From Ardenticatena sp. (GTDB lineage: Bacteria > Chloroflexota > Anaerolineae > Ardenticatenales > Ardenticatenaceae), in contig WFOS01000076.1 of assembly GCA_015487975.1 (NCBI GenBank), positions 11,091-75,090 of the forward strand: a stretch of 64,000 nt of DNA. Reading direction: 5' to 3'. Positions 4,925 to 62,689 of the stretch are shown here, piece by piece; within the stretch, counting starts at the first letter, position 1; each line of letters begins with the position of its first letter. Both the position numbers and the translations under genes were made by a program. The notes under the pieces are model-generated. The model was not told the DNA's origin. It was given only the letters and a program-made list of their open reading frames with translations, and searched no databases.

Positions 4925-6292
4925 ATGAGCAGAAAGATGAGCAAACAGAGGCAGGTACGCCACCGTTGCCCATTTTTGGGGGATGACACACGCCCCAAAC
5001 GTGGGCACCCCTACCCACATGATGCCCACCGCTGTTGGGCGAAAGGTACGCCTGCCACCATTCCACGCCGCCGTCAAGCGCAACACTGCCTGCGCGATGC
5101 TCACACACGTTGTCCCATCTTCACGGCGCTCATCCCACAGGAACAGATCTCCGTGCGCCCAGACACCGCCCCCACACAGGCGCTGATTGCCCTGTTGGAT
5201 GAACCGCCGCGACGGCGCCCACCATCGCGGCCACATGCCACCACGTCTACGCGAGCCACACATGGCCACCTGCTCCGCAAACTGCGAAGCCAGACCGCCG
5301 CGCATTCCAAAAGGACACGTCCGCACCCAACAGAACGCGCAACCGCTACGCACGCCACCCGTGCGACCATCGCGACGCGCCCCAGCACACGCCCCCAATA
5401 TGCCACACGCGCTGCGCGGCTCATGCCCGCCACACCAACCCCCTTGCCGCGCCGTCGTGCCTCGCTCTGGTTGTGGGGCTTTGCCATGACGCCGATGCTG
5501 GCGGCAATCGTCATTGCCGCGTTCATCATCATGCGCACCAGCGGGTCATCTGCGCCCAGCCCAGACGCGCTGGCCGTCGCCACGCCTTTCGCCAACAATG
5601 TCGCCCTGGCTGCCGTGCCGTCAAGCAGCCCCCCATCGCCCACGGCCACACCAGGCTCGTTCATCCCGCTTCTCGCCATCACCGACACCAACGCGCCACC
5701 ATTCGACCCGGTTGCCGAAGCTACCGTTGTCGCCCAAACCGAGCAGGAAAAATCGCAAACGGGCACCGACCAGCCCAATGCCCCCCTCATCGCCACTCCG
5801 GGGCCATTCCCACCACCGGCGACAAGCCCCCCCTCGCGACTCATCATCCCAGCCATCAACCTCGCCTCGCGCGTTGTGCCCGTTGGTACCTACTTGGTCC
5901 AGCAAGGCAACTATCTCGTGCGCTACTACCAGGTCGCAGAATACGCTGTCGGATGGCATGAAGATAGTGCCCTCCCCGGCGCACGCGGCAACACCGTCAT
6001 GGCCGGACACAACAACACCAAAGGCGAAGTATTCCGCGATTTATGGAAACTCGAACCGGGCGACATGGTCTACGTCGAAGCCGATGGACGCCTCTACGCC
6101 TACCAGGTGGCGCTCAAAAAAATCGTGCGCGAAGTCGGTGTGCCGCTCGAACAGCAATTCGAGAACGCCCGCTGGATTGCGCCCACGAACGATATCCGCC
6201 TCACACTCGTTTCGTGCTGGCCGTATGAAAGCAATACGCACCGTGTCATCATCGTCGCTGTCCCATTCGGCACCAACGTCGTCACGCAATAG
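4925..6292 (+). CDS. Sortase-family transpeptidase with an N-terminal cytoplasmic Cys/His-rich domain, a TM segment and a Pro-rich linker
   Basis: The C-terminal domain reads 'SRLIIPAINLASRVVP...NTVMAGHNNT...IRLTLVSCWP', with the sortase His and the TLxTC-type Cys. TM segment 'LWLWGFAMTPMLAAIVIAAFII'. A strong GAGGAGAC RBS sits directly before ATG 4925. The N-terminus reads 'CPFLGDDT...HRCW...QHCLRDAHTRCPIF'. An alternative shorter start is ATG 5423. Confidence 0.75.
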   Translation: MSRKMSKQRQVRHRCPFLGDDTRPKRGHPYPHDAHRCWAKGTPATIPRRRQAQHCLRDAHTRCPIFTALIPQEQISVRPDTAPTQALIALLDEPPRRRPPSRPHATTSTRATHGHLLRKLRSQTAAHSKRTRPHPTERATATHATRATIATRPSTRPQYATRAARLMPATPTPLPRRRASLWLWGFAMTPMLAAIVIAAFIIMRTSGSSAPSPDALAVATPFANNVALAAVPSSSPPSPTATPGSFIPLLAITDTNAPPFDPVAEATVVAQTEQEKSQTGTDQPNAPLIATPGPFPPPATSPPSRLIIPAINLASRVVPVGTYLVQQGNYLVRYYQVAEYAVGWHEDSALPGARGNTVMAGHNNTKGEVFRDLWKLEPGDMVYVEADGRLYAYQVALKKIVREVGVPLEQQFENARWIAPTNDIRLTLVSCWPYESNTHRVIIVAVPFGTNVVTQ

Positions 6293-18140: not shown

Positions 18141-18173
18141 CCTGGTAGGTTGTGATTTGTGGAGTGTTGCCGT

Positions 18174-19468: not shown

Positions 19469-19476
19469 AAGCCCTC

Positions 19477-20436: not shown

Positions 20437-20457
20437 GGTGCCATCTCCTCACCCGTA

Positions 20458-21837: not shown

Positions 21838-21853
21838 TCCATCCTCCCATTAC

Positions 21854-23209
21854 TTATGAACGACCAAACAGCTTTCCAAACAGAGACCCATCCTTGCCTT
21901 TCTTCGGTGTTCGAGCCTGTTGTTCACGCCTGCCAGCACGTCCAGCAGACCCTTCACTCTCATCCTGGTGTGGAGATGAAACCTTTTCGCTAAATCGTTT
22001 GGCAAGCCCCAAAACACCTTGGGCAATAGGGGTACGCTGCTGATTGATGACGAACGGAATCCCTTTGTTCAAGGCATCGATGGCAACGCGTTCATTCGCT
22101 TCGATGACAGCCAGCAACGGGTGCCGAATACTGGATTGAATTGCTTCCGGTTTAATACCGGTACGCACATCATACCGGTTGAGCACAAGCTCGATTTTGG
22201 ATTCATCGTAGCCCAATTGCTCACCAAGTTCAAAGAAGTTCTTTGTATTGCGAATAGCAGGGATTTCAGTTGTCATCACCAGCAAAATTTTGTCAGCATG
22301 ATCAAGAATCGTGAGAACTGGTTCATGGAGCGAGGTACGTGTGTTGACAAATACATAATCGTATTCCGAACGCAGCAATTCAAACATCTTGACGAATGTC
22401 TCAGGCGTCACCAATTCAGCATCCACAGGGGTCAATGGTGCCAAAAGCACCTTCACACCCGATGAATGCGTTACGGAAATATCATGCAAAAACTGGATAT
22501 CAGCTTCCTCAATCGCTTCGGCCAGGTCGCGGAGTGTGCGTGTGACTTCAAGGTTCAAGAACACACTGACATCACCAAATTGCAAGTCAGCATCGACAAG
22601 CGCCACCCGGGCCGAAGGATGCTGTTGTTGCAACGCCAATGCCATGTTCACGGCCAGCGTTGTGGCGCCCACTCCACCTTTTGCTCCGAAGATTGCCGTA
22701 ATCGTTGCCCCCCGTGTGACCTGAGGAGTGCTCATTCGTGCTGCTGTTGCTTGTGCGATCCCTTGCGCGATCCCACGCTGTTCAAGACCAGCCTGAGGGG
22801 AGATGGGCGTTTCTACCTGAGGCGGACGCATCTGCTGCGCCAGAGCATAGACCCGGCGAATACTGGTACTAAGTTCATCACTCGAAAATGGTTTGATCAA
22901 ATACTCGCGTGCGCCAGCCAACATAGAACGCCGTAGGTAATCGGCGTCGTTTTGCACACTCATCATAATGACCTGGGTGCCGGGAACTTCGCGTGTGAGC
23001 GCTTCGACCGTGGCGATCCCATCCATGCCCGGCATATTGATATCCATCAAAACGATATCGGGGCGCAGTCGGCGGGCCTGCTGAATAGCCTCTTCTCCGC
23101 TGCCAGCTGTTCCCACTACTTCGATATCGTTTTCGAAGAAGAGCAATTTCTTCAAGTTTTCACGCGTATCAGCGCTGTCGTCGACGATGAGTAAGCGGAT
23201 TGTGCTCAC
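21854..23209 (-). CDS. cpaE: Response-regulator receiver domain fused to a CpaE/MinD-like ATPase
   Basis: REC domain: 'IRLLIVDDSADTRE...DIVLMDINMPGMDG...KPF'. Deviant Walker A: 'ITAIFGAKGGVGATTLAVNMA'. Confidence 0.9.
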   Translation of the reverse strand: MSTIRLLIVDDSADTRENLKKLLFFENDIEVVGTAGSGEEAIQQARRLRPDIVLMDINMPGMDGIATVEALTREVPGTQVIMMSVQNDADYLRRSMLAGAREYLIKPFSSDELSTSIRRVYALAQQMRPPQVETPISPQAGLEQRGIAQGIAQATAARMSTPQVTRGATITAIFGAKGGVGATTLAVNMALALQQQHPSARVALVDADLQFGDVSVFLNLEVTRTLRDLAEAIEEADIQFLHDISVTHSSGVKVLLAPLTPVDAELVTPETFVKMFELLRSEYDYVFVNTRTSLHEPVLTILDHADKILLVMTTEIPAIRNTKNFFELGEQLGYDESKIELVLNRYDVRTGIKPEAIQSSIRHPLLAVIEANERVAIDALNKGIPFVINQQRTPIAQGVLGLAKRFSEKVSSPHQDESEGSAGRAGRREQQARTPKKGKDGSLFGKLFGRS

Positions 23210-23300
23210 GACGCCTCTCCTTCATGTCGGATATGCTCTTTTTAGCATCGAAAGGTACGCATCCCCAGAAAGAACATCGGACCGAATCGTCTCCCCAACA

Positions 23301-24128
23301 TCATTGCGTTGGTTCAACGAAGACCGAGTCCAACAACGCCTGATCCAACCCAAAGTTGGTAAGGATATAGCGTAGCGTGACCGGTTCGACGGTATATTCG
23401 GTTTCATCACCAGCCGGGCGCAATACAAAGATAGGTGTCATATATTGAGAAATATATGTCAAGATAGCCGCCTGTTGACGATCGACGAGCAATGTATACA
23501 TGTTTCCGGCTGCTGCTTCACCATCTTCGGCTGTCCATGGCGATGTGCGCAAAATTTCAATGTTTTGCAACGTAAAAGCCGTCATATTGATAGAAGTGCG
23601 GCTCAAGTTCGGCGGTAATGTCCCCCCCAAATCCTGAATCGATGCCGAGAACGAAACAATCAGGTCAACCGTATCACCCGGACGAATGGCGCCAGCCACG
23701 CTCGAAACTTCGTTGACTGGAAACGCCATAGCAACTTTTCCCTCGGGAATCAAGAAGGACACATCCGAACGTTGCGCCGCACTGGCTCCCAACTCTTCGG
23801 CGGCTGCTTCTTTATCCACAACCATATCTCGCACAATGGGTTGGCCCTGGTAAATATCTGTCGTTGCCAGCTTATTGGCAACACTCGCCGTATCTGTCAA
23901 AGCCCCGGTAGGAATCAACTCCACTGGCCAATCGCGTACTGTGATCGCATCCGGCGGGATGACACTTCGTGCTGGAATGGGCTGAATCGCGACAACAACC
24001 GGGCGCGTTTCAACCGGTGCTGCTTCTTCGCCTGACGATGTCGCCAACATGAAGAAAACCAACCCGGCGGAAACAACGGCCAAAATCAAACCAAGTAAGA
24101 CGAGGATTCGACCACGCATGCTATTCAC
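23301..24128 (-). CDS. cpaB: Flp pilus assembly protein CpaB/RcpC-like
   Basis: N-terminal TM segment, then a SAF-like 'VVVAIQPIPARSVIPPDAITVRDWP' and the RcpC-type C-terminal domain. Confidence 0.8.
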   Translation of the reverse strand: MNSMRGRILVLLGLILAVVSAGLVFFMLATSSGEEAAPVETRPVVVAIQPIPARSVIPPDAITVRDWPVELIPTGALTDTASVANKLATTDIYQGQPIVRDMVVDKEAAAEELGASAAQRSDVSFLIPEGKVAMAFPVNEVSSVAGAIRPGDTVDLIVSFSASIQDLGGTLPPNLSRTSINMTAFTLQNIEILRTSPWTAEDGEAAAGNMYTLLVDRQQAAILTYISQYMTPIFVLRPAGDETEYTVEPVTLRYILTNFGLDQALLDSVFVEPTQ

Positions 24129-24200
24129 CTCGTATCTTCAAGTTGTTTGCGTATGGTGAGCATACCGTTTCTCATGGTTGCTGGCAAGTCAACCACGTGC

Positions 24201-27200
24201 TCAACGGAAAATAACAGGTAAATAGACATCACAATTGGGTGGACAAACGATCCTTTCGACGATGAGCCCATCAGGCAAAACACCTGTACCACCATCAGGG
24301 TTACGAACATACACATCCCATGCGCCGTTCAACTGCCCTAACAAGTCAAATGTGGCTTCAATTTGGGAACTTGAAAGCGATGTCACCACACCATCGATGC
24401 GTGCATTCTCTTTCTGAATCCAGACGGAAGCCCCTGTAGCAAAGTTCGCCCCGCTAATGGTGATGTTCTGATCATCCTGAGGCATAACACGTACCGGCGA
24501 GACAGAAACGACTTCAGGGCTTGGTGCAATGGCATCCGTCACTGTAATGACCAAGGGACCAATCAAATTATTCGTTTCAGGCCACTCTGGGATAGGCCAA
24601 CCATTTCCTGTACCACCATCGCCATCATCTGTATTGACCTGCGCATACACGTAATAGGTGCCAGGGGTTGCAAATGACGTATATGGCGTTCCCATCGAAT
24701 CGTCACTGGAAAGTGTCACACGCCCATTTTGCTGCAAAGAAGCCCCATTCACGTACCAGTAGGTGCCAACATCGGACAATTCCATGCGTGAAGGTGGATT
24801 CGGTTGCGAACGCACATACAAATCTGCCCAAATTCCCCACGTTTCTGGATCAGGGAGCTGATCGACGCTTGGCATTCCCGTCATACGTGCCTCGAAAGTA
24901 ATCACGACAGGCTCGCTAGTGCGTAAGACGGTGCGTGTCGCTGCCAACCCAGATGCCCAAAAATCACCAGCGACAGGGACGAAAATGGGTTCACCCATTG
25001 CAGCATGACCACTCGCATCCTTCACACCATACTCGGTATTGGCAATCCCACCTGCATCGACACTATCGACACGCACGGTATACGAAACAACACCACTTCC
25101 ACCTAGTCCCACAAGGTCAGTTGGCCATGTCCATGAAAGCACATCACCAACTACGACAGCACCATTGGATTGCAGCAAGGTCGTGTTCGCTGGAATACGG
25201 TCCGTTACAACGATGCCGGTCGCATCCATATCGCCCGTATTGGTAAATGCCAACGTAAACGTCACCACATCATTTGGCAGCACACCGCTCGATGGCTGGG
25301 CACGCTTGCTGATATGCAAAACGGGGCGGCTGGTCAATGTCAAGAGTGCCTCGTTGGACATGAGATCGCGAGCGGAAAGCGTTCGCGCCTGAGCCGTATT
25401 GGTGATAGCGGTTGTACCAGCCGGGAGTGGGCGATCGACCCGGACCCGGAAGGAGAGTTCACCACTCTGACCAATCGGCACTGAACCAACAACCCAACGT
25501 AGTTCCGGAAGGTTGGAGGCATCGGCACCGGGGCCACTGATTGAATCAGTGAGATACGTTGTGTGAAGCGGAATGGTGTCCGTCAACACAACATCGCTCA
25601 AATCGACGTTCCCCGTGTTGGTATAGACAATCCGATACAACACTTCATCCCCTGCTTTGGCCACTGCAGGAATGGCTTCTTTGCGAATGTCCAGCTGGAC
25701 TGTCGTGGTAATCGTGTTGAATACTGCGTTACTGAAAGCCGGTAAGCTATCAGTACTACTAATAGTGGCTGAGTTGAAAATGTCGTCTCCCGAAAATGCC
25801 TCGACATCCGTGTTCACTTGCACTTTGAACGTGAGTGTCCCACCACTGTGCGGTGCGATTTCTGGCACCAACCAGCGTAAAACAGGTGGTGTCTGGTTTG
25901 TATCATATTCAAAGGTAAAGTTTGCTGGATGTGTTTCCGAGCCAACGACATAGAGCGTGTTCGTCGGCACAGCATCTTCGATGACGACATTGCGCGCCGG
26001 TATATTGCTGGTATTGGAAATCTCCAATGTGTATTGGATCTCCTGACCAGGCACAACCAGGCCTTGCGGCGAGTTTGCCTTCGTGAAATCGAAGCGGACG
26101 ACTTCCAAGTCATTCAAGACCTGTGATCGATTGTTTCCTGGGTCTACATCGGGTCCAGGATAATCGATCTCGACCGTGTTGGTGATCACCGGGCGAGCCT
26201 CTTGCAACGGTAAGGCAGTCAGGACATCCGTTACACGCAGGGTCACAGTGATGGTATTCGTGACACCAGGTTCTACCCGTCCGAGATTGGCAGTGTACAT
26301 ACGATCGCCTGTTTGCGTCACCCCAGCAAATGCAAATGGATGCGACGCATTCACGAAATCAACATAGGAGGGGAAGGTCTCGGTCAACACCGCATTCGTA
26401 GCCACCGAATCTGCCGCCGTCGCGCGGTTTCCATACTGAATCGTGTATGTTATCAAGCTTCCACGGGCAATGAAACCTGTATTCAAACTTGCTTTCGAGA
26501 CCCACAAATCAGGAGGCGGAACTTCATACACCAACTGCACCCGCTGCACAGAGGGGGTTGTCTTTGTAAAGGCCGTTCCCATACGGATACGATATTGTAC
26601 GAACTGTCCGCTTGTTCCCAGAGGTAATTGAATCGAATCCGTGTAGATGCCGTCTGGCTGACGCAACGTTTGCGTGTAGGTACTGTGGAAAGGCCCTATC
26701 CAGGGAGCTTTCTGCAAGTTGCTCAAAGAGCCATCTGCCACGCGATATTCAATCGTGACAGTCACAGGAGTCGTATTCAGATCGAGAGTTGGGCTGATGA
26801 AAGTCGTCCACCGCAATTCGCGCAACGTGCGGTTCGAGAAAAGCACAATTGGGCGTGAGACGAACTCGCCATAAGGTGCATACTGGGATGCGGCCCCGCT
26901 CATCGAGCCATAATCGACGACATTCGTCCCTGGGGACGCAATCCCTTCACTCGCCCCGCCAATCACGTAAATCCATCCACGGCTCGAAATGACAGCATCA
27001 TGGAGAAATCGCGTAAGCGTCAGCGCCTTCGTCTCGAACCAGAAATCGATGCCGCCATCAGGACGCACGATCCCAGTCGTCACTTTGTCCGATGCTTGGT
27101 TCAAATTACTCCCAGATGCACCACCGATGATCAAAAACTGACCATTGTATTCCACAGCTGCAGCATGCCGCCGTTGTTCCGGCAAAGGCTGTGTCGTATT

Positions 27201-28226
27201 CCACCCCCCGGGAATAGGGTCCGTTAGTCCCTGTGGCGTTGCGTAGTAAACGTTGCTCGCAATGTCGCTTCCAGCAATGTTGTACAATCGGCCTTCATAT
27301 GCCAATGCTGAACTCCCGAACACTTTTTCAGGGAGATTCGGGGTAAGACGCTTCCATTGGGAGATCGTACCATCCGCATTGGGCTGTGCGGCAAAAATAC
27401 ATGCTGATCCATCCAAAACACCCGGCTGTCCCCCGATCACATAAATCGTATCGCTCATGACAATAGCCGCTGTACGAGCACGCCCCGTCTCCCCATTTGT
27501 CAATTCGTCACACAACCCCTTAGTATCCGATATAGGAAGCGGAGTCGTCTCGGTGAAACTCCCCAATGAGCCATCAGTGACATCGATAGGCGCGAAGAAA
27601 ACCGTATCGGTCACGATATAATTCTGATCGATCCCACCAATTACATACAAATAATTGTTCCAAATAACCGATTGATGTCCATAGATTGCCACTGGCAATG
27701 AAACGGGAAGCGTTTCCCATATCCCAGGTTTGTCGGGCGTATCAGGCACATTGCTTGTAATAATCGTCGTATGATAAATCGCGGCAGATGGCACTTGATT
27801 GACTTCTCCGCCGATAACGTACAAATGCTCTACACCTTGTGCATCTTTGAAAATTTCCACCGTATGTGACTTGATGGCCGGTAATCCCTGCCCCATATCC
27901 GAATACCAATTACCCGCAAGCCCAATTGCCAACAAGGTAATCTCACCATTCCCATCTCCTACAGGTGCATCCCGCCGTGAGACGCCCGTCAAGTAACCAC
28001 GTCCCTCGAAAAAATCTTGTTCGGTGTCATCCTCGATGATTGCCAAGAGAGGTGTGGCTGCTGGCAAAGCCGATCGTCGAACCAGAGAAGAAGGCGAGGC
28101 ATTACGTGCATCGACAGGCGAAATCCACAAAATGGTCAAGAGCATCGAAACGCCTAAAACAAGCAAAACCCCCAAACTCATCAAGAAGAATGCCCCGCGA
28201 CGAGAAACTCGTAACAAGTGGAACAT
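24201..28226 (-). CDS. 1341-aa exported surface protein: six Kelch-like blades, four DUF11-type repeats and a C-terminal IPT/TIG domain
   Basis: Signal/TM segment 'FFLMSLGVLLVLGVSMLLTIL'. Repeated 'LYVIGG/IYVIGG/FLIIGG' Kelch blades. DUF11-like units 'ITYTIQYGN...', 'IQYTLEISNTSN...VIEDAVP', 'VLYRIVYTNTGN...VLTDTIP' and 'VTFTLAFTNTGD...VVTDRIP'. IPT-like 'NITISGANFATGASVWI'. The protein ends '...CDVYLPVIFR'. Confidence 0.85.
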   Translation of the reverse strand: MFHLLRVSRRGAFFLMSLGVLLVLGVSMLLTILWISPVDARNASPSSLVRRSALPAATPLLAIIEDDTEQDFFEGRGYLTGVSRRDAPVGDGNGEITLLAIGLAGNWYSDMGQGLPAIKSHTVEIFKDAQGVEHLYVIGGEVNQVPSAAIYHTTIITSNVPDTPDKPGIWETLPVSLPVAIYGHQSVIWNNYLYVIGGIDQNYIVTDTVFFAPIDVTDGSLGSFTETTPLPISDTKGLCDELTNGETGRARTAAIVMSDTIYVIGGQPGVLDGSACIFAAQPNADGTISQWKRLTPNLPEKVFGSSALAYEGRLYNIAGSDIASNVYYATPQGLTDPIPGGWNTTQPLPEQRRHAAAVEYNGQFLIIGGASGSNLNQASDKVTTGIVRPDGGIDFWFETKALTLTRFLHDAVISSRGWIYVIGGASEGIASPGTNVVDYGSMSGAASQYAPYGEFVSRPIVLFSNRTLRELRWTTFISPTLDLNTTPVTVTIEYRVADGSLSNLQKAPWIGPFHSTYTQTLRQPDGIYTDSIQLPLGTSGQFVQYRIRMGTAFTKTTPSVQRVQLVYEVPPPDLWVSKASLNTGFIARGSLITYTIQYGNRATAADSVATNAVLTETFPSYVDFVNASHPFAFAGVTQTGDRMYTANLGRVEPGVTNTITVTLRVTDVLTALPLQEARPVITNTVEIDYPGPDVDPGNNRSQVLNDLEVVRFDFTKANSPQGLVVPGQEIQYTLEISNTSNIPARNVVIEDAVPTNTLYVVGSETHPANFTFEYDTNQTPPVLRWLVPEIAPHSGGTLTFKVQVNTDVEAFSGDDIFNSATISSTDSLPAFSNAVFNTITTTVQLDIRKEAIPAVAKAGDEVLYRIVYTNTGNVDLSDVVLTDTIPLHTTYLTDSISGPGADASNLPELRWVVGSVPIGQSGELSFRVRVDRPLPAGTTAITNTAQARTLSARDLMSNEALLTLTSRPVLHISKRAQPSSGVLPNDVVTFTLAFTNTGDMDATGIVVTDRIPANTTLLQSNGAVVVGDVLSWTWPTDLVGLGGSGVVSYTVRVDSVDAGGIANTEYGVKDASGHAAMGEPIFVPVAGDFWASGLAATRTVLRTSEPVVITFEARMTGMPSVDQLPDPETWGIWADLYVRSQPNPPSRMELSDVGTYWYVNGASLQQNGRVTLSSDDSMGTPYTSFATPGTYYVYAQVNTDDGDGGTGNGWPIPEWPETNNLIGPLVITVTDAIAPSPEVVSVSPVRVMPQDDQNITISGANFATGASVWIQKENARIDGVVTSLSSSQIEATFDLLGQLNGAWDVYVRNPDGGTGVLPDGLIVERIVCPPNCDVYLPVIFR

Positions 28227-28287
28227 GGGAGACTCCTTCCTCGATTATGATACACATAGACCATGTCCAAACGGAGCGACATGCAAG

Positions 28288-28308
28288 AGGGGGGCATCAA
28301 GCCCCCCT
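28288..28308 (-). other. GC hairpin between the TadG-vWA gene and the giant protein gene
   Basis: 'aggggggc atcaa gcccccct' forms an 8-bp stem. The U-tract on the minus strand is weak, so it may be a processing or attenuation element rather than a full terminator. Confidence 0.3.
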
Positions 28309-28330
28309 TTCTACGCTAGCACGTCGAACA

Positions 28331-30580
28331 CTACGGACACCACGTCGGGCGGGCAGCACCATCGCACGTGCTCAGGTACAAGACTTCCACTTGTGTAACT
28401 CCCGTCCCTTGCCCAACGCTGACTTCGACATAGCCACCACGCGGATTGTCCGGGTTACGTGGTGGGCCACCATTCCCATACGTCAGGATATCATACACTA
28501 AGCCATTGCGATTGACACGTGCCGTGAGCCGATATGTCCCTGGTGCCACATCCGTGAACTGATAAGCACCAGCATTGTTGGCTGTCGTCGTTTGCACCAC
28601 AGCACCACTGGTCGTACGCAATTCGATCGTTGCACCAGCTCCCAACGTTTCCTTCGTGTAATACGTCCCCTCTTTACCAATCTGCTGGACGCGATTCCCA
28701 ATAAGTTGGTAGATATTCGCCAAGTCGGAAGCATTACGCGCGACGTAGAAGTGGCGTTCATAATCATCGATGCGCCCATTGCCATCGTAATCGACATCTG
28801 GTGAGGCAATCGCTTCGGTCACCGCAGTATTGAACCCATCACCAATTGCAATCGAGAAGACAATGATCCCTGCTTCTTTCGCCAAATTTGCTTGGTCGAT
28901 CGTCTGTTGTTCAGCCTGGTTATTGCAAGCAGGTGTATTCTGCCCTTGACCAGCAGCACCACCAAAGCCTGTCCACTTTCCGTCAAGCGTAACGTTTACA
29001 ATGCCATCCGATGCGATAATCAAGACCGGAACGGCACCGGGCCGTAAATCAGCCAACAACTGCTCGCGGGCTGTTTGGATGGCATGCGCCAATGACGTCG
29101 CACTATTCGCATTGAGACTCCGAATAATACTATTGACATATGCGACATTGTCCGTGAGAGGCGAACGCACCTCCGAATACAAACGGGTACGCAACCTGTA
29201 ATTGTCACATACTGTGCGATATTGTGAGCCACTCGAAACCGTCGGGAACGTCGTCAACCCAACCCTGTCACCTTCAACAGTATTCAACGTATTATTGAAA
29301 GTGATCAGCGCGTCTTTGGCAGATTGCAGTTTCGACGAACCGCCCGACCATGACGCCCTCATCGACCCCGAAATATCCAGTACCAACATCACATCCACGG
29401 GGATCTTTTGCTCAGTCGTTCCTTCCGTGTAGAAGATTTCGTTCAAGTGGACTGTACCAGCAATCACACGCCCTAGGTCGGCAGGTGGTTCATCATAGAG
29501 CTTGACGGTTTGCGTCAGATAGCACCCACCACCTGGCGGTGCTGTGGTATCAACATAGCGTTCAAAGACACCTTCGATCCACTTGTTCCGTCCACGTGCC
29601 TTGTAATCCGTCAAGCGGAAGCGGGCAAAGCCCACAATGTGATACCGCAGATTGTTACCACGCCCCGTCGTATAGTCGTAAATCGGCACCACAACCGAGG
29701 GATCATGCTGAATGGTTACACCATCATGCGAATGGGTCGCCCCCGAAATATACGCATCCAGCTCGTTCCGTACGCTACGACTTTTCATCACACCAGTCGC
29801 ACCTGGCAGCATGTCCCCCACACGCCACGTCCCGCTGCGGCGGGTGTCATGCATGTTGGAAACAAGCGTTGTGTTGCTGGGATCGTTGTTCCACGAGACC
29901 CAACCGAAGTTTCCATACGAGGAATTGTTGCCTTTTTCCCAGATACGGTAGGTTGCCCCCTCGATCGGCTTGCCCCCGGGATCATCCTGGAACAACGCAG
30001 CACTCACCGCTATAGGAAAGAGGTTACTTGCACTGGCTGGGCACCAATTCGGGTTGGCTTGTGCAAAAGCATCGGCAGATGTTTCCATCTCGTCGAAGCC
30101 AATAACACGCGCGAAGAATGTTTGGAAATCCAGCGTCGAGCGGACTTCGATACCACTGACCTCATACGAAGGCGGAATCCCACCATTGTTGGGCAGTGGC
30201 ACCCCCACGCGTTCTCCACCTGGCCCAATGAAGTATGCCTCGATGTTCGTATTGATATCGTCATTGGGATTGCCATTGCTATCTGGAATACCATTGGCTT
30301 GCGCAACGCGTATAATGGTCTGCCAAATACGTCTCTCATCCTGTACTGTCCCCGCATAGCGGCCACTATTTGGGTCAACAGCAACGCGTGCCAGTTCGGC
30401 ACCACCGGCCAGCGTTGCCGCATCGACAGCATTTTGCACACGCTGGCGTTGCACATACGCATTCCCAGCGTCGGTTACCAACGCCAGGAGCGCCATCAGG
30501 GCAACCAGAGCGCCACCGATAATGACAAGCGACTGCCCGGCCTCCCGATGCAATGAACGGAAAATCTTCGTTCCTCTCAT
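28331..30580 (-). CDS. TadG/TadE-like N-terminal domain fused to a von Willebrand A domain and a C-terminal Ig-like (CarboxypepD_reg/SdrD-B-like) domain
   Basis: N-terminal 'GQSLVIIGGALVALMALLALVTDAGNAYVQRQRVQNAVDAATLAG' (Tad N-terminal type). vWA MIDAS 'VMLVLDISGSM' and 'IIASDG'. C-terminal 'NAGAYQFTDVAPGTYRLTA'. Confidence 0.85.
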   Translation of the reverse strand: MRGTKIFRSLHREAGQSLVIIGGALVALMALLALVTDAGNAYVQRQRVQNAVDAATLAGGAELARVAVDPNSGRYAGTVQDERRIWQTIIRVAQANGIPDSNGNPNDDINTNIEAYFIGPGGERVGVPLPNNGGIPPSYEVSGIEVRSTLDFQTFFARVIGFDEMETSADAFAQANPNWCPASASNLFPIAVSAALFQDDPGGKPIEGATYRIWEKGNNSSYGNFGWVSWNNDPSNTTLVSNMHDTRRSGTWRVGDMLPGATGVMKSRSVRNELDAYISGATHSHDGVTIQHDPSVVVPIYDYTTGRGNNLRYHIVGFARFRLTDYKARGRNKWIEGVFERYVDTTAPPGGGCYLTQTVKLYDEPPADLGRVIAGTVHLNEIFYTEGTTEQKIPVDVMLVLDISGSMRASWSGGSSKLQSAKDALITFNNTLNTVEGDRVGLTTFPTVSSGSQYRTVCDNYRLRTRLYSEVRSPLTDNVAYVNSIIRSLNANSATSLAHAIQTAREQLLADLRPGAVPVLIIASDGIVNVTLDGKWTGFGGAAGQGQNTPACNNQAEQQTIDQANLAKEAGIIVFSIAIGDGFNTAVTEAIASPDVDYDGNGRIDDYERHFYVARNASDLANIYQLIGNRVQQIGKEGTYYTKETLGAGATIELRTTSGAVVQTTTANNAGAYQFTDVAPGTYRLTARVNRNGLVYDILTYGNGGPPRNPDNPRGGYVEVSVGQGTGVTQVEVLYLSTCDGAARPTWCP

Positions 30581-30609
30581 AAGCCTACCTCACGCACTCT
30601 TCATGGGGT

Positions 30610-31538: not shown

Positions 31539-31571
31539 AGTCTCACTACTGTTGTATCGTTTTCTTACCAC

Positions 31572-31600
31572 ATTCTAACAGGGAAAGAGAAGAGATGCAA
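31572..31600 (-). promoter_or_regulatory. Candidate sigma-70 promoter of the tad gene block
   Basis: The minus strand reads TTGCAT-N17-TAGAAT, about 30 nt upstream of ATG 31538. Confidence 0.55.
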
Positions 31601-31725
31601 TAGGTATTGTGTGCATCCTTGCAGGCAAAAATCTGGGACTTTCGTTAGTCGCGTGGGATGACTTTTGCACGCTATACGCCCACTGTACAGCAAAAAGGTT
31701 ACGGCTTATATTACAAGCGAGCGCA

Positions 31726-32547
31726 TTACATGCCAAATCGGCGGCGCAAGATGAAGGCCCCAACCAATGAAAGCCCAAACAATGCTGCGACAAGGAGCCA
31801 GAGGTCTGCAAATGTGCTGGCGTCATCGCCAGTTGCGGGAAGAACCCCTTGCACCTGTGGGGTGAGTGTGGGCTGAGGGGTAGGCGTTGTGGTAGGCATG
31901 CCTGTTTGGCCAAGTACGAGACGCAAAGAAACGACTTCACCCGGTGCACCTGTGGTTTCAAGTGCTGCTCGTGCCAAGACCTGCCCCTCGACCAATGCTT
32001 CGATGACGGCTTGTCCAGCCCCAAGATTATCGAAGTAGAAGAAGCCATTTGAATCAGTCAGCCATTCCGCCTGCCACCCTCCGCCACGCAAACGCACCAG
32101 CACACCTGGCCAGCCAGCACCCTGAGCATCTACGACAAACCCCTCGACACGCGAAAAGCAACACTGTGAATTCGGGCCCACAGTACCGTTGGTGTCCCCA
32201 GCGTCAGCCCGAGTTGGGGTTGGCGTGGACAAAGGATGGCTTGTCTGAGTAGGTTGCGGTACGGAAGTGGATGTGGCTGTTGGCGTATTCGCCGGAACCG
32301 TCGATGTTGGTGGGACTGGGGTGGGCGTGAATGTTGGTGTGGGCGTGACGTCTGGTGCTGTTGTGGTTGGTTCCGGCGTTGGTGTCGCCGTTGCCGTTGG
32401 CGGAACGGGCGTTGCCGTAGAAGTTGGCGTCGGCGTTGGCGTTGCACGCTGTTGCAATGGCGACGCCGCATATCCCACCGCAGGAAATACGCCAAAGAAA
32501 ACAAGAACAAGGACCAGGTCCATGCGCTTGATGAGAATACTCATCAT
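31726..32547 (-). CDS. Exported Pro/Thr-rich protein with a CarboxypepD_reg-like domain and a C-terminal LPXTG-type sortase signal
   Basis: Signal peptide 'MDLVLVLVFFGVFPAVGYA'. Long P/T-rich linker. 'VEGFVVDAQGAGWPGVLVRL...TDSNGFFYFDNLGAG'. The C-terminus 'LPATGDD...LWLLVAALFGLSLVGAFILRRRFGM' gives LPATG, a TM segment and a basic tail. Start ATG 32547 has an AAGGAG RBS. Confidence 0.8.
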   Translation of the reverse strand: MMSILIKRMDLVLVLVFFGVFPAVGYAASPLQQRATPTPTPTSTATPVPPTATATPTPEPTTTAPDVTPTPTFTPTPVPPTSTVPANTPTATSTSVPQPTQTSHPLSTPTPTRADAGDTNGTVGPNSQCCFSRVEGFVVDAQGAGWPGVLVRLRGGGWQAEWLTDSNGFFYFDNLGAGQAVIEALVEGQVLARAALETTGAPGEVVSLRLVLGQTGMPTTTPTPQPTLTPQVQGVLPATGDDASTFADLWLLVAALFGLSLVGAFILRRRFGM

Positions 32548-32560
32548 CCCATTGCTCCTT

Positions 32561-33688
32561 TTACGATGCAGATGGCAAACGTGGTGATGCGTTTTCGGTT
32601 GGTGCCAGCGCGGGCATACGAACCTGGACCCGTGTCCCTCGGCCGGCAGCACTATCCACCTGCATTTTACCTTGCAACATTTCAATGCGCTCTTGCAGAG
32701 TTGTCAAGCCGATGCGCTTCTGTTGGGCTGATGTGCGCAAAACAGCACCAACATCAAACCCCACACCGTCATCTTCGACCGTCAGAACGATTTCATCGCC
32801 TTGGCGGTCGAGCGTGACGAGCACGTTGCTGGCATTGGCATGGCGCTCGACATTGCGCAACAATTCCTGCAATGTGCGGAAAAGCGTAATCTCGATCGTT
32901 GGATCGAAGCGCTGATCGTCACCCAACACCTGCAATCGGATGGTAAAAGGGACTTTGTTCTGCAAAGCCTCTACATAACGCTTCACAGTGGGAACCAGCC
33001 CCAAATCGTCCAGCATCATGGGGCGCAAATCGAAGATAAAGTCGCGGATCTGTTGGAATGTGGTATTGACCGCATTTTTGAGATTGTTCAATTCAACACG
33101 TGCCCGCTCAGCGTCCATATCGAAGAGCCGCTGACAGACTTCGGCTTGCAAAATCAGGTTCGTCAGTGATTGTGCCGGGCCATCATGCATCTGGCGTGCC
33201 AAATTGAGGCGCTCACTTTCCTGCGCTTCGATCAGCTGGACCACCATTGCCATACTGTCGAGCGGCACAACCTCACCCTCTTCATCACCCAAACGCAGGG
33301 CTGATGTTCCTGGCGCCGTTTCAGTTGCTTCGGCAAACGCCACCACTCGCTGCAACATTTCTGCGTAACGTTCAAGGATGCGTTGCTTATTTTGCAACTG
33401 CTCGATCTGGCTTCGCATCATGAACAAGCGCATCTGCATTTCATGTGCCGCCGTATAGAGCGCCTTGATATCTTCGCGCGGCACTGTATCGAAGTTCATT
33501 TCCATCTGGCGTACACGATTTTGCGCCTGCAAATTGCGCTGCGCCAGCCGCTCAACCTCGGCGGTACTCTGCCGAATCAGCACATCCAGCTCGCGTAATT
33601 CCCCTTGAATGCGCTCCAACTCCTGCGAGGCATCCTCATGCAATTCGTGCAGTTTTCGCAAAAAACCCGTTGACTGTTGCATACTCAC
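32561..33688 (-). CDS. Cytoplasmic DegS-like sensor histidine kinase (HisKA_3 + HATPase_c)
   Basis: Coiled-coil N-terminus. H-box 'LARQMHDGPAQSLTNL', N-box 'LLRNVERHANA', G1 'VEDDGVGFD' and G2 'GLTTLQERIEMLQG'. Confidence 0.9.
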   Translation of the reverse strand: MSMQQSTGFLRKLHELHEDASQELERIQGELRELDVLIRQSTAEVERLAQRNLQAQNRVRQMEMNFDTVPREDIKALYTAAHEMQMRLFMMRSQIEQLQNKQRILERYAEMLQRVVAFAEATETAPGTSALRLGDEEGEVVPLDSMAMVVQLIEAQESERLNLARQMHDGPAQSLTNLILQAEVCQRLFDMDAERARVELNNLKNAVNTTFQQIRDFIFDLRPMMLDDLGLVPTVKRYVEALQNKVPFTIRLQVLGDDQRFDPTIEITLFRTLQELLRNVERHANASNVLVTLDRQGDEIVLTVEDDGVGFDVGAVLRTSAQQKRIGLTTLQERIEMLQGKMQVDSAAGRGTRVQVRMPALAPTENASPRLPSAS

Positions 33689-59818: not shown

Positions 59819-62218
59819 CTAACGCAGAATGAGAGGCAAATATACGATGTAATCATCATTCAAAACAATGGCTTGGCCTGCATTCGTCCCCATAGAAACC
59901 GGATTCGCATTGCTCAGGTACAACCAAAATACTTCATCGTCTTCGACGAGTGTATCGCCATACACGTTGACCACGATATGCTGTATGACTTCTCCCGGAT
60001 TGAACGTCAGCGTTCCACTCACAGGCTCGAAATCTTCCCCTCCTATCGCTGCGTCGCTTCCCACCCCGTTTTGCGTGGTGTAATCCACCGTGACGGTGAA
60101 TGCTGCCGGCGTCGAAAGGATCACATCGAAGGTCGCTGGTGTTATACCACTGTTGCCTTCTTGGACAACTGGCCCAGAAGCGAGATCCATGCGTGCCGTA
60201 TCATCGTCTTCGATGGTGCCAGTTGCTTCGCTATCGACGAGCGAGGCATTGACAGGCGCACGCAATTGCACCAAAAACGTTTCACTCACACCTTCATCGA
60301 CCACATCCCCATTCATCGTAACCGTAATCGGCTTCAGCGTCTCCCCTGGGGCGAAGACGACTTGCCCACTGATGGCAATGTAGTCTTCGCTGCTCGTCGC
60401 CGTACCATCACTGGTGGCGTACTCGACAGTAACTGTCGAAGCCGATGATGGGGAAAGCGTCACAGCAAACACCATTGGGGTTGTACCGGTGTTTCCTTCC
60501 AAGAGCGACTGGTCGGCTATTGCAAGCGCTGGCAATCCATCATCATCAATAATCGTTCCTACGGCGCTCCCATCCAATACATCAGCGTTGAGTGGTGCAC
60601 TCAATAGCACAACGAAGGTCTCATCCACCTCGTCATCCGTGTCACCTTTGACATCGACCGCGATCGTCTTTTGCGTTTCCCCCGGATTGAACGTAAGGGT
60701 TCCCGCGGTGGCAACGAAATCAACGCCCCCGATGGCGGTTCCATTTACAGTCGCGTAATCGACCTGCACCGTGGCTGTGCTCGTTGGGGCGAGTGTCACA
60801 GTGAAAACAGCGGTCGTGGTACCACTATTCCCTTCCACAACGACAGTATCCTGAATGATCAGTTGGCGGTGCGCCTCCACAGCACCAATATCGCATACGG
60901 CTGTTCCATCACCATCGCCATCGAACGGTCGTGCACGACCACGTGCATCGAACGATGGACAGAGGGAATTGCTCCCTGTATCCAAAGCCGGGCTGCCAGG
61001 AACAAGCGCATGCGTCCAAACCAAGCCACCATTATCCGCAAGAGGCGCCAGAAGCGGATCGCTATTGGGTACATCACTCGCCTGCGAAAGGGCACATGTA
61101 TCATCGTCGGCCAGGTTGTTGCCAAGCGAGGTGAGTTGTCCATTCAACGAACAATTGTCGTCGTCATTGTACGCCAACAGCGTATTTCCCATCACCACCG
61201 ACGCGCCCGTCCCAACGACAATTCCATTGCGCCCTGCTCCCAACGTGTTGGTGCGTGTATTGGAGACGATCGAGCTGTTCGTCAGGTACACCATCACACC
61301 CGAGCCGCTCACATACAGCCCTGCGTAATTGTTGGTCGCTACATTGCCGCTCACTGTCGTATTCGTCGCTGTCAGAACCCCCTTGTTCACGAAGATGCCA
61401 CCACCATTGGCTGCCTGATTGCCAGAGACCGTGACACGATCGAGCACCACACTCTCCAAAGCCAACACCGAAAGGCCACCGCCAAATGAACTAGACACAT
61501 TTCCACGCACTGTCGTTTCTTCCAAGCGAGCAGACGACCCGTCAATAAGAAGCCCCCCACCATACAATCCAGCCGATGAATTTCCCGCGACTGTGCTGCG
61601 CGATACGGTCAGCACACCAGTGTAATTATGGATACCACCACCATAGACCTGTGCCGTGTTACTCATGACAGAGACATCTTCGAGCGTCAACGCCCCTAGA
61701 TTGAAAATCCCCCCACCGCTGCCGTTGGCATCATTCCCGACAACCTCCACATGGCTGAGCGTGACGTTTCCATTGGTAAGCATGCCCGCTCCAACCTCAT
61801 CGAAAAATGCACCATCGAACGTTCGGCCATTCTGGACACGCACACCCGAAATCACAGTAGTGGCATTGATGGAAAACACACGCCCGAGACCACCAGCATC
61901 CACAACTGTGTTGGACGCACCCGCCCCGACAAGCGTAATATCGACGTAAATCTCGATACCATGCTCATTGTATGTCCCCGCTGCCACCTGCACCGTGTCG
62001 CCATCTGCCGCCTTGGCAACCGCCGCAGCGATCGTTGCACATGCCGTTGCTGGTGAAAGGCAATCGTTGCTATCATTGCCACTTGTGGCGTCCACATACC
62101 AAGTCGCTCCCAATGGAGCCGCGTGTAAAAGCATCCCCATCGCGAGCGGCCCCCACAGCAAGAACACAACCAACACACCACCTAATGCACCTGCCAGTGA
62201 AAAAGAGTTGCGAGCCAT
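59819..62218 (-). CDS. Exported protein: right-handed beta-helix (PMP-like GGGI/GGGL repeats) followed by three Calx-beta domains
   Basis: ATG 62218 has an AGGAGG RBS. Signal 'LAGALGGVLVVFLLWGPLAMGMLLHA'. Repeats 'GGGIFN', 'GGGIHN', 'GGGLLI', 'GGGLSV' and 'GGGIFV'. Three units of the form 'EGNSGTT..VFTVTL....V.Y.T.DGTA..G.D....G.L.F.PGE..K.I.V...GD...E..E.F.V.L'. The protein ends '...DDYIVYLPLILR'. Confidence 0.85.
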   Translation of the reverse strand: MARNSFSLAGALGGVLVVFLLWGPLAMGMLLHAAPLGATWYVDATSGNDSNDCLSPATACATIAAAVAKAADGDTVQVAAGTYNEHGIEIYVDITLVGAGASNTVVDAGGLGRVFSINATTVISGVRVQNGRTFDGAFFDEVGAGMLTNGNVTLSHVEVVGNDANGSGGGIFNLGALTLEDVSVMSNTAQVYGGGIHNYTGVLTVSRSTVAGNSSAGLYGGGLLIDGSSARLEETTVRGNVSSSFGGGLSVLALESVVLDRVTVSGNQAANGGGIFVNKGVLTATNTTVSGNVATNNYAGLYVSGSGVMVYLTNSSIVSNTRTNTLGAGRNGIVVGTGASVVMGNTLLAYNDDDNCSLNGQLTSLGNNLADDDTCALSQASDVPNSDPLLAPLADNGGLVWTHALVPGSPALDTGSNSLCPSFDARGRARPFDGDGDGTAVCDIGAVEAHRQLIIQDTVVVEGNSGTTTAVFTVTLAPTSTATVQVDYATVNGTAIGGVDFVATAGTLTFNPGETQKTIAVDVKGDTDDEVDETFVVLLSAPLNADVLDGSAVGTIIDDDGLPALAIADQSLLEGNTGTTPMVFAVTLSPSSASTVTVEYATSDGTATSSEDYIAISGQVVFAPGETLKPITVTMNGDVVDEGVSETFLVQLRAPVNASLVDSEATGTIEDDDTARMDLASGPVVQEGNSGITPATFDVILSTPAAFTVTVDYTTQNGVGSDAAIGGEDFEPVSGTLTFNPGEVIQHIVVNVYGDTLVEDDEVFWLYLSNANPVSMGTNAGQAIVLNDDYIVYLPLILR

Positions 62219-62599
62219 TCTTGCCTCCTTTGGATGTCTCACAGCACCATTTTTCCGATACACTGGCAGGCAAGTTCCGAGCCAAGGGGCATCTTCCCTA
62301 CCTGTGTACCCACAAGCCTTACACCAAACCCTCACAACAGACGCGCACCAACACATCCCTACCACGTGGCGTGATGCATACATGCGGAGAGCAAGAACGA
62401 CGCTCTTCGAGCGCACCAGAGGAAGATGGTATGCAAAAGGGCTTGATGAAATAAACGCATGCGAAGAGAAGATTGGGATATTCTCAGATGTAGATTTCTA
62501 CTCGATCAGTGACGCTGTTACCACTCGTAAAAAAGCCCACCGTCAAAAGCAGCAATTTGACAGTAAACACATTCCAGATATACTTTCGCTCGCTCGTGA

Positions 62600-62672: not shown

Positions 62673-62689
62673 TTTGACAATCGCATCGC

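What the first reader, a model, noticed from the sequence alone, without database searches (positions are those of the whole stretch)
24201..24227. Recurrent extreme C-terminal peptide [YF]-L-P-[LV]-I on three unrelated exported proteins: possible unrecognised sorting or anchoring tag
Three predicted secreted or anchored proteins in this window end with almost the same short hydrophobic peptide, right at the stop codon:
- The 1341-aa Kelch/DUF11 protein ends '...CDVYLPVIFR*' (24201-24227).
- The beta-helix/Calx-beta protein ends '...DDYIVYLPLILR*' (59819-59845).
- The copper-amine-oxidase-like protein ends '...QQHMFLPLIQHTP*' (40723-40755).

I re-translated the first two codon by codon. The domain architectures of the three proteins are unrelated, so shared ancestry of the tails is unlikely.

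The motif is not followed by a TM helix or basic tail. That sets it apart from the canonical sortase signal, which is present in the window on a different protein (31726..32547: LPATG + TM + RRRFGM).

Inference: this is a C-terminal recognition tag for processing, cell-wall or S-layer attachment, or secretion. It would be analogous in concept to LPXTG, PEP-CTERM or GlyGly-CTERM signals but much shorter. I cannot tell from here whether it has been catalogued.
Basis: partly seen in the sequence, partly recalled or inferred. Interest (0 to 1): 0.75.

Follow-up and report, generated by a model that had tools for sequence, protein, structure and literature searches.

The report
YLP-box C-terminal tag of Chloroflexota
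Three unrelated exported proteins in this Ardenticatena (Chloroflexota) genome end in the same 8-9-residue peptide; the recurrence is real and far beyond chance, but NCBI's protein-family library already lists it as the 'YLP-box putative sorting motif', and how it works is still untested.

Summary
Three proteins end in ..VYLPVIFR*, ..VYLPLILR* and ..MFLPLIQHTP*. [YF]LP[LV]I occurs nowhere else in any long ORF of the window (chance P about 2e-10).

The motif is widespread. It terminates most homologues of two of the three proteins: about 100 of 120 and 57 of 120. It also terminates 37 of 863 unrelated gene proxies in 79 Chloroflexota loci, against 5-6 expected. Nearly all carriers have an N-terminal signal peptide.

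Consensus: hydrophobic-[YFW]-L-P-hydrophobic-[IVL]-x-[RKN]-[P or end], with 4-6 residues after the proline in 81% of tails.

The tail is modular. It stays terminal when PKD, DUF11-like or Calx-beta domains are inserted upstream. At the same position other homologues carry PEP-CTERM, JDVT-CTERM, LPXTG+TM, a plain TM+basic anchor or a dockerin. AlphaFold2 leaves the tail unstructured, and codon usage is ordinary.

It is not unrecognised. NCBIfam release 20 holds NF050076 'sort_motif_YLP' and NF053834 'ultrashort_CTERM', both named 'YLP-box putative sorting motif-containing protein'. Protein 1's tail passes the NF053834 cut-off, protein 2's is just under the NF050076 cut-off, and protein 3 is a divergent variant with no hit.

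I found no paper or experiment, and no processing enzyme could be identified. Verdict: a real feature, correctly interpreted, already catalogued; the mechanism is open.

The parts
24201..24230 (-). Stop codon plus YLP-box tail D-V-Y-L-P-V-I-F-R of the 1341-aa protein
   Evidence: Searches give the codons GAT GTC TAT TTA CCT GTT ATT TTC CGT TGA. The isolated tail scores 13.5 bits on NF053834 ultrashort_CTERM, cut-off 10.
24201..28226 (-). Exported Kelch propeller / DUF11 x4 / TIG protein with the architecture of a fibrillar adhesin. It lies inside a Tad pilus locus and carries YLP-box 1.
   Evidence: Pfam and NCBIfam. The N-terminus has a hydrophobic segment, MFHLLRVSRRGAFFLMSLGVLLVLGVSMLL... 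DUF11 is described as the stalk of adhesins that end in sorting domains (PMC12617251).
59819..59845 (-). Stop codon plus YLP-box tail V-Y-L-P-L-I-L-R
   Evidence: Searches give the codons GTA TAT TTG CCT CTC ATT CTG CGT TAG. The tail scores 13.4 bits on NF050076 sort_motif_YLP, cut-off 15.
59819..62416 (-). Beta-helix / choice-of-anchor Q / Calx-beta x3 protein carrying YLP-box 2. The probable true start is Met67 at 62218, followed by a signal peptide.
   Evidence: NF041518 choice_anch_Q 81.7 bits; Calx-beta 171.6 bits. 57 of 120 homologues of the N-terminal part end in a YLP-box.
40723..40755 (+). Divergent YLP-box tail M-F-L-P-L-I-Q-H-T-P plus stop
   Evidence: The closest homologues keep it: P0001 FLPLIQHTP and Ardenticatena maritima P0002 FLPLIEQSP. 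No NCBIfam hit.
38965..40755 (+). Copper-amine-oxidase-like exported protein carrying YLP-box 3. The true start is probably about 45 codons downstream of 38965.
   Evidence: In the AlphaFold2 model the body has pLDDT above 90, helix 46-72 is the signal or anchor, and the tail 586-596 has pLDDT below 50.
31726..32685 (-). Contrast case: a canonical sortase substrate (LPATG, TM helix, RRRFGM) in the same locus
4925..6292 (+). Sortase of no defined class, with a long N-terminal extension. It is a candidate enzyme only, with no link to the YLP-box shown.
   Evidence: PF04203, 85.8 bits. It passes only the generic TIGR01076 model and is far below every class cut-off. It is 100% identical to 'sortase [Ardenticatena sp.]' P0254.

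Best explanation
The three tails are instances of the YLP-box, an ultrashort C-terminal motif of Sec-exported proteins of Chloroflexota. NCBIfam lists it as a putative sorting motif.

Shown here:
- It is a protein-level linear motif: hydrophobic-[YFW]-L-P-hydrophobic-[IVL]-x-[RKN]-[P or end].
- It sits within about 4-6 residues of the free C-terminus.
- It sits on signal-peptide proteins of many unrelated folds.
- It is unstructured in a predicted model.
- It occupies the slot where homologues in other lineages carry PEP-CTERM, JDVT-CTERM, LPXTG+TM, a TM+basic anchor or a dockerin.

Inferred:
- After Sec export and signal-peptide cleavage, the tail is recognised by a dedicated envelope factor. 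This could be an enzyme that cleaves or transfers it, or a receptor that binds it.
- That factor retains or attaches the protein at the cell surface of these single-membrane filaments.
- The layout looks like a miniature of the classical three-part signal. A signature (YLP) is followed by 2-3 hydrophobic residues instead of a TM helix, and one basic residue instead of a basic cluster. Recognition may therefore happen as the C-terminus leaves the translocon.

The recognising factor is unknown.
For: Identity:
- NF053834 and NF050076 hit the tails.
- The lineage is Ardenticatena, Chloroflexota.

Non-randomness:
- All 3 strict matches in the window are terminal, P about 2e-10.
- In 863 non-family gene proxies from 79 Chloroflexota loci, a relaxed motif lies 0-4 residues from the end 25 times, against about 3.6 expected per bin.
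- 37 tails were observed, against 6.4 +/- 2.5 after shuffling and 5.4 from the internal rate.

Exported proteins:
- The tail occurs in 24 of 253 proxies with an N-terminal hydrophobic segment and in 13 of 610 without one (odds ratio 4.8, P = 7e-6).
- Of those 13, 9 are good tails on ORFs cut by a locus end or with a misplaced start. The other 4 look like chance matches.

Conservation outside the search pattern:
- Position +4 is R, K or N in 127 of 166 tails.
- Position +5 is P or the end of the protein in 102 of 166.
- 81% have 4-6 residues after the proline.

Modularity:
- The tail stays terminal after inserted PKD or DUF11-like domains.
- It lies only 4-10 residues after the choice-of-anchor Q domain.

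Interchange with anchors:
- PEP-CTERM: TIGR02595 scores 18.6 and 16.6 bits, cut-off 16.
- JDVT-CTERM: 34.6 bits, cut-off 27.
- LPDTG+TM+RR.
- TM+basic.
- Dockerin_1: 27.9 bits.

Other points:
- The tail is not part of a fold: pLDDT is below 50.
- It is not a DNA element: GC3 is 0.71 in tails and 0.68 in gene bodies, and Leu codon usage is alike.
Against: - No experiment, proteomic C-terminus or paper was found.
- No cognate enzyme was identified. There was no further sortase among 943 gene proxies. No YLP-box or LPXTG protein lies next to the sortase homologues examined. No recurrent protease neighbour was found.
- A signal with no TM helix has no obvious way to hold the protein at the membrane while it is processed.
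- Only one of the three window tails passes a curated cut-off. In whole-protein scans none is reported.
- The enrichment test rests on ORF-based gene proxies and a hydrophobicity heuristic, not on real gene calls or a signal-peptide predictor.
Confidence: 0.62

Rival explanations
1. The YLP-box is a substrate signal for the Chloroflexota sortases, which fit no defined class. The enzyme would recognise L-P-x-(beta-branched residue) much as it recognises LPXTG. It would cleave within the tail and link the protein to the cell wall, with no need for a TM retention helix.
For: - The motif shares the L-P core with LPXTG. Position +2 is I or V in 122 of 166 tails and T in 8, so it is mostly beta-branched like the T of LPXTG.
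- The window encodes a sortase that passes only the generic model: 68.6 bits against 160 for class E.
- Relatives of this sortase are common in Anaerolineae and other Chloroflexota metagenome-assembled genomes (MAGs).
- Canonical LPXTG+TM substrates are rare in the sampled DNA. One was seen in about 1.3 Mb, against dozens of YLP tails.
Against: - The window has a proper LPATG+TM+RRR substrate, which already accounts for the sortase.
- There is no glycine at +3, and the basic residue at +4 has no counterpart in LPXTG.
- No intermediate forms (YLP followed by a TM helix) were seen.
- The sortase neighbourhoods examined hold no YLP-box proteins.
- None of the 120 listed sortase homologues sits on the multi-megabase Ardenticatenaceae contigs that carry YLP proteins. 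This is a weak hint only.
Confidence: 0.15
2. The tail is a non-covalent anchor or docking peptide. It would be a short hydrophobic hook that either inserts in the outer leaflet of the membrane or adds a strand to an S-layer, sheath or receptor protein. No cleavage would be involved.
For: - The core is very hydrophobic and flanked by an aromatic and a basic residue, as in interfacial membrane peptides.
- A frequent terminal R/K-P would resist carboxypeptidases, which suits a tail that must persist outside the cell (inference).
- A dockerin, which is a non-covalent docking module, occupies the same slot in some homologues.
- The tail is free and flexible in the model.
Against: - Five or six hydrophobic residues give weak membrane affinity.
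- The near-invariant proline and the fixed register point to recognition by a specific protein site rather than by lipid.
- No candidate receptor was found.
Confidence: 0.15
3. The tail is a C-terminal processing or turnover tag. A PDZ-containing envelope protease of the Ctp/Prc or HtrA type would read it and use it for maturation or quality control, not for localisation.
For: The distance to the free C-terminus is tightly constrained: 4-6 residues after the proline in 81% of tails. This is what a reader of C-terminal peptides would impose.
Against: - The terminal residues themselves vary (R, P, E, D, N, K), whereas PDZ readers key on the last residues.
- A degradation tag kept on about 4% of genes and on most members of whole enzyme families is hard to rationalise.
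- Interchange with bona fide anchors argues for localisation.
Confidence: 0.06
4. The recurrence is chance or shared ancestry of the gene ends and has no function.
For: None beyond the shortness of the motif.
Against: - P is about 2e-10 in the window.
- There is six-fold or greater terminal enrichment in independent loci.
- Conservation holds across families at about 50% identity and across domain insertions.
- There is no shared nucleotide sequence or codon bias.
Confidence: 0.01

Closest known systems
YLP-box putative sorting motif (NCBIfam NF050076 sort_motif_YLP, 11 positions; NF053834 ultrashort_CTERM, 10 positions)
   Same: - Same peptide and same extreme C-terminal position.
- The models hit the tail of window protein 1 (13.5 bits, cut-off 10), that of protein 2 (13.4 bits, cut-off 15) and many homologue tails (up to 19.3 bits).
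   Different: - Protein 3's tail (FLPLIQHTP) has Q-H-T-P where the consensus has x-[RK]-P, and gets no hit.
- In whole-protein scans the short models are not reported at all.
- The library gives only a name. I had no access to its description, seed members or any proposed partner.
LPXTG cell-wall sorting signal with sortase
   Same: - It is a C-terminal signal on Sec-exported surface proteins.
- It has an L-P core followed two residues later by a mostly beta-branched residue.
- It co-exists in the same genome, where a sortase and an LPATG protein lie in the window.
   Different: - There is no T-G, no TM helix and no basic cluster. The whole signal is 8-9 residues instead of about 35.
- An aromatic residue is required before L-P, and a basic residue sits at +4.
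PEP-CTERM/exosortase, JDVT-CTERM and related three-part signals
   Same: - They occupy the same slot after choice-of-anchor Q domains in homologues.
- The order of elements is the same: signature, hydrophobic stretch, basic residue(s).
   Different: - The hydrophobic element is 2-3 residues, not a membrane-spanning helix.
- No exosortase-like partner is known or was found.
Short eukaryotic C-terminal signals (KDEL, PTS1 -SKL, CaaX box)
   Same: They are also very short linear motifs read at or near the free C-terminus. This is a conceptual analogy only, from general knowledge.
   Different: The kingdoms, compartments and machineries are unrelated, and no homology is implied.

Membership tests
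YLP-box (NF053834 ultrashort_CTERM / NF050076 sort_motif_YLP) | Protein 1 (24201-28226): HMM score at or above the curated cut-off | tested here: met
   The isolated 27-aa tail scores 13.5 bits on NF053834, cut-off 10. The hit is not reported in the whole-protein scan at E<=1.
YLP-box (NF053834 / NF050076) | Protein 2 (59819-62416): HMM score at or above the curated cut-off | tested here: inconclusive
   The tail scores 13.4 bits on NF050076, cut-off 15. NF053834 is not reported, possibly because of HMMER's filters. The sequence VYLPLILR matches the consensus of 166 tails at every position.
YLP-box (NF053834 / NF050076) | Protein 3 (38965-40755): HMM score at or above the curated cut-off | tested here: not met
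   Neither model hits at E<=10. The F-L-P-L-I core is present. About 100 of 120 homologues of the same family carry typical YLP-box tails at the same place, so I treat it as a divergent variant.
YLP-box (NF053834 / NF050076) | Motif at the extreme C-terminus, not followed by a TM helix | tested here: met
   Two, two and four residues lie between the 5-residue core and the stop.
YLP-box (NF053834 / NF050076) | Carrier is an exported protein with an N-terminal signal peptide | tested here: met
   All three have hydrophobic N-terminal segments. The model of protein 3 has helix 46-72. This rests on a heuristic, because no signal-peptide predictor was available.
LPXTG sortase signal | LPXTG pentapeptide followed by a TM helix and a basic tail | tested here: not met
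   There is no T-G, and 2-4 residues follow the core. Compare the true LPATG signal at 31726-32685.
PEP-CTERM / other exosortase signals | PEP-type signature, TM helix and Arg cluster; a hit to the CTERM models | tested here: not met
   No CTERM model other than the YLP-box models hits the tails.
Any enzymatically processed sorting signal | A cognate processing enzyme co-distributed with the signal; cleavage or attachment demonstrated | not testable with these tools
   This needs whole-genome phylogenetic profiling and proteomics. The partial attempts gave nothing.

The most novel reading that the evidence does not exclude
The YLP-box is a true enzymatically processed sorting signal that works without any membrane-spanning segment. 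Its reader would be machinery not yet identified: either the Chloroflexota sortases that fit no defined class, acting as the C-terminus leaves the translocon, or a wholly new enzyme. This would be a new class of surface-protein sorting and the main way these filamentous single-membrane bacteria decorate their envelope, given that the tail sits on about 4% of sampled genes.
Probability: 0.35. Interest if true: 0.7.

Novelty: already known. Interest (0 to 1): 0.3.

Why it matters
Chloroflexota are abundant in wastewater, sediments and hot springs, and how they anchor surface proteins is poorly understood. A tag on a few percent of their genes could be their main surface-sorting route. It sits on adhesin-like proteins, oxidases and beta-helix proteins.

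Its extreme shortness challenges the rule that C-terminal sorting signals need a membrane helix. It would also make a compact tag for protein display.

As a discovery the value here is limited, because the motif is already catalogued by NCBI. This analysis adds independent quantitative support, a refined consensus with positions +4 and +5 and the length constraint, and direct evidence that the tail swaps with known anchors in homologues.

Tried and rejected
- Literature: searches for the peptide strings, 'YLP-box', 'ultrashort CTERM', the NCBIfam accessions, and Chloroflexi with sortase, sorting signal or exosortase found nothing relevant.
- Whole-protein NCBIfam scan: it missed the motif. Only scans of isolated tails revealed the models.
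- Sortase link:
  - There was no second sortase among 943 gene proxies.
  - The neighbourhoods of three sortase homologues hold tandem sortases, DsbD_2 and copper-related genes, but no YLP-box or LPXTG substrate.
  - This line is inconclusive and was dropped.
- Recurrent neighbours of YLP proteins: clustering showed only synteny around the amine-oxidase-like gene and no protease or membrane enzyme.
- DNA-level explanation (a conserved nucleotide element or rare codons): rejected.
- Tail as part of a fold: rejected, because AlphaFold2 gives pLDDT below 50.
- Taxonomy of unnamed hits through cluster look-up: no names were returned.
- Presence outside Chloroflexota: contigs labelled Acidobacteriota or Zixiibacteriota gave one weak tail and no neighbours with tails. 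This is not evidence of a wider range, and the contigs may be mis-binned.
Full report
**1. The observation**

The 1341-aa protein at 24201-28226(-) ends CDVYLPVIFR*. The 865-aa ORF at 59819-62416(-) ends DDYIVYLPLILR*. The 596-aa ORF at 38965-40755(+) ends QQHMFLPLIQHTP*.

I scanned all six frames of the window. The strict pattern [YF]LP[LV]I occurs exactly three times in stop-to-stop ORFs of at least 100 codons. Every occurrence lies 2-4 residues before the stop. Given the amino-acid composition of the 54 gene proxies, 0.001 such endings are expected, so P(>=3) is about 2e-10.

The domain architectures are unrelated:
- Protein 1: Kelch propeller, four DUF11 repeats and a TIG domain.
- Protein 2: right-handed beta-helix, choice-of-anchor Q domain and three Calx-beta domains.
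- Protein 3: a copper-amine-oxidase-like domain.

A canonical LPATG + TM + RRRFGM protein lies at 31726-32685. A sortase-domain protein lies at 4925-6292.

**2. Source organism**

The sortase is 100% identical to 'sortase [Ardenticatena sp.]' (P0254). Protein 3 is 83% identical to an Ardenticatena maritima protein (P0002). The window therefore comes from an Ardenticatena species (Chloroflexota, Ardenticatenia).

**3. The tail in relatives**

Among the 120 best homologues of protein 3, about 100 end in [YFW]-[LIMF]-P-x-hydrophobic followed by a few residues. The tail stays at the very end even when one or more PKD, DUF11-like or other domains are inserted between the catalytic domain and the terminus. 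It therefore behaves as a portable terminal module, not as part of a fold.

Homologues without it end in one of these:
- a TM helix plus basic cluster (P0016, P0078);
- a dockerin type I domain (P0102 at 27.9 bits, P0027 at 22.0 bits);
- another recurrent ending, ..PTND.

For the beta-helix/choice-of-anchor Q part of protein 2, 57 of 120 homologues end in the motif. It often lies only 4-10 residues after the ..CDIGAYE end of the domain. At the same position other homologues carry:
- PEP-CTERM (P0186 and P0233; TIGR02595 at 18.6 and 16.6 bits, cut-off 16);
- JDVT-CTERM (P0214; 34.6 bits, cut-off 27);
- LPDTG + TM + RR (P0176, Dehalococcoidia);
- other TM+basic tails.

This is the 'choice of anchor' behaviour that marks C-terminal sorting signals.

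**4. Enrichment in independent genes**

A scan of one genome per species returned 79 loci (1.25 Mb). Almost all are from Ardenticatenaceae, Promineifilaceae, Anaerolineales, Caldilineae and unclassified Chloroflexota.

I excluded the 80 members of the query family, which left 863 ORF-based gene proxies.
- A relaxed 5-residue core lies 0-4 residues from the C-terminus 25 times and 5-9 residues away 13 times. About 3.6 are expected per 5-residue bin.
- In total 37 proxies carry a terminal tail. Residue shuffling gives 6.4 +/- 2.5, and the internal rate predicts 5.4.
- Tails are associated with an N-terminal hydrophobic segment: 24 of 253 with one against 13 of 610 without (odds ratio 4.8, P = 7e-6).
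- Of the 13 exceptions, 9 are good tails on ORFs cut by a locus end or with a misplaced start. The other 4 look like the expected chance matches.
- The N-termini look like cleavable Sec signal peptides with AxA-type sites.

**5. Anatomy of the motif**

I aligned 166 non-identical tails on the proline.

| Position | Residues |
|---|---|
| -3 | L/I/V/T |
| -2 | Y 107, F 48, W 11 |
| -1 | L 135 |
| 0 | P |
| +1 | L/V/F/A/I |
| +2 | I 67, V 55, L 15 |
| +3 | variable |
| +4 | R 67, K 46, N 14 |
| +5 | P 61, end of protein 41 |

- Positions +3 to +5 and the tail length were not part of the search pattern, so their conservation is independent evidence.
- 81% of tails have 4-6 residues after the proline.
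- The layout reads like a miniature three-part signal: a signature, 2-3 hydrophobic residues, then one basic residue.
- Codon usage in the tails does not differ from the gene bodies (GC3 0.71 against 0.68). The three window tails use different codons. The constraint therefore acts on the peptide, not on the DNA.
- In an AlphaFold2 model of protein 3 (mean pLDDT 83.7) the body is confident. Residues 586-596 have pLDDT below 50, so the tail is a free appendage.

**6. Is it catalogued?**

Yes. Whole-protein scans of NCBIfam showed nothing on the tails. Scanning 45-residue tails on their own brought up two very short models, both named 'YLP-box putative sorting motif-containing protein':
- NF050076.1 'sort_motif_YLP', 11 positions, cut-off 15 bits;
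- NF053834.1 'ultrashort_CTERM', 10 positions, cut-off 10 bits.

Scores on the tails:
- Protein 1 scores 13.5 bits on NF053834 and passes.
- Protein 2 scores 13.4 bits on NF050076, just below the cut-off.
- Protein 3's divergent tail gets no hit.
- Consensus-like tails from relatives reach 19.3 and 16.6 bits.

I found no paper on the motif in the searchable library.

One paper gives useful context (PMC12617251). It describes DUF11 as the stalk domain of fibrillar adhesins that have a signal peptide, an adhesive domain and a C-terminal sorting domain. Protein 1 has this plan, with the YLP-box in the sorting-domain slot.

**7. How it probably works**

- Shown: it is a terminal, portable, peptide-level motif on exported proteins, and it is interchangeable with known anchors.
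- Inferred: after Sec export the tail is read by a dedicated envelope factor that retains or attaches the protein at the cell surface.
- Unknown: I could not identify that factor.

The window's sortase passes only the generic sortase model. It scores far below every class-specific cut-off, and its relatives are common in Chloroflexota. That makes it a tempting candidate.

Several points argue against giving it much weight:
- The window also holds a proper LPATG substrate for it.
- No YLP-box protein lies beside the sortase homologues examined.
- There was no further sortase in 943 gene proxies.
- The motif lacks the T-G of LPXTG and has a conserved basic residue that sortase signals lack.

I therefore give the sortase hypothesis about 15%. 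Non-covalent docking or membrane hooking gets about 15%. A PDZ-protease processing tag gets about 6%. Chance gets about 1%.

**8. Verdict**

It is already known at the level of a curated family model, so it is not an unrecognised tag.

The analysis here adds quantitative enrichment, a fuller consensus and direct evidence of anchor swapping.

Noticed in passing
window 17424-32685 (- strand): A complete Tad/Flp-type pilus locus. It holds a ComF-like gene, DUF192, two T2SSF genes (TadB/C), a T2SSE ATPase (CpaF), a response-regulator/ParA-like gene (CpaE-like), RcpC/CpaB, a TadG-like VWA protein and two TadE genes. The YLP-box Kelch/DUF11 protein is embedded between CpaB and TadG, and the LPATG protein lies at the upstream end. 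The big YLP-box protein may be a pilus-associated adhesin.
   Followed up: partly
window 4925-6292 (+): The sortase has a cytoplasmic extension of about 180 residues that is rich in Arg, Pro and Thr and carries Cys/His pairs. It passes only the generic TIGR01076 model: 68.6 bits against 160 for class E and 53 against 166 for class F. It therefore belongs to no defined sortase class.
   Followed up: partly
L010 9899-12610 and 12810-16025; L052 9974-11944; L068 22-2115; protein P0184: A second recurrent C-terminal signal in Chloroflexota relatives..(Q/T)PT[AD]V-x-[LVF].., about 10 residues, a TM helix, then RR[KR]. The two tails that were scanned (P0184, and P0016, which is the L010 9899-12610 protein) hit no NCBIfam CTERM model at E<=1. 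This may be an uncatalogued three-part sorting signal.
   Followed up: partly
proteins P0035, P0049, P0064, P0080, P0070 (homologues of window 38965-40755): Another shared ending instead of the YLP-box..YEP(L/F)xNPPGGG..P.NVPNAE.V..PTND or ..PTNGPND. Its meaning is unknown.
   Followed up: no
L014 7669-9003, L054 12045-13334, L022 12039-13316, L038 14002-15123: YLP-box variants that are not quite terminal: YLPL(I/V)xN.. followed by 3-13 residues and ending in ..TC..TCG..TCSG or ..TCN. The near-terminal Cys recurs in a family of secreted proteins of about 370-450 aa next to the amine-oxidase-like gene.
   Followed up: no
protein P0158; also P0126/P0131, P0181, P0218: P0158 has a YLP-box (SYLPLLMTR) followed by 35 more residues, possibly from a frameshift or read-through. 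The others have P->A or P->S at the otherwise near-invariant proline: FLALVQR.., FLSIIHH and YLSVVRR.
   Followed up: no
L080 7161-9811; L082 7053-9803: In other Chloroflexota, two tandem sortase genes are followed by a DsbD_2 gene. They lie amid copper-related genes (YHS, multicopper oxidase, cytochrome c, YtkA).
   Followed up: no
window 62600-62763 (+): Two adjacent tRNA-Ala genes (anticodons CGC and GGC) just upstream of the start of the beta-helix/Calx-beta gene on the opposite strand.
   Followed up: no
window 38965-39103: The listed GTG start of the amine-oxidase-like ORF overlaps the end of the preceding 462-aa gene (37629-39017). The A. maritima homologue is 46 residues shorter and the model shows residues 1-43 as disordered. 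The real start is probably about 45 codons downstream.
   Followed up: partly
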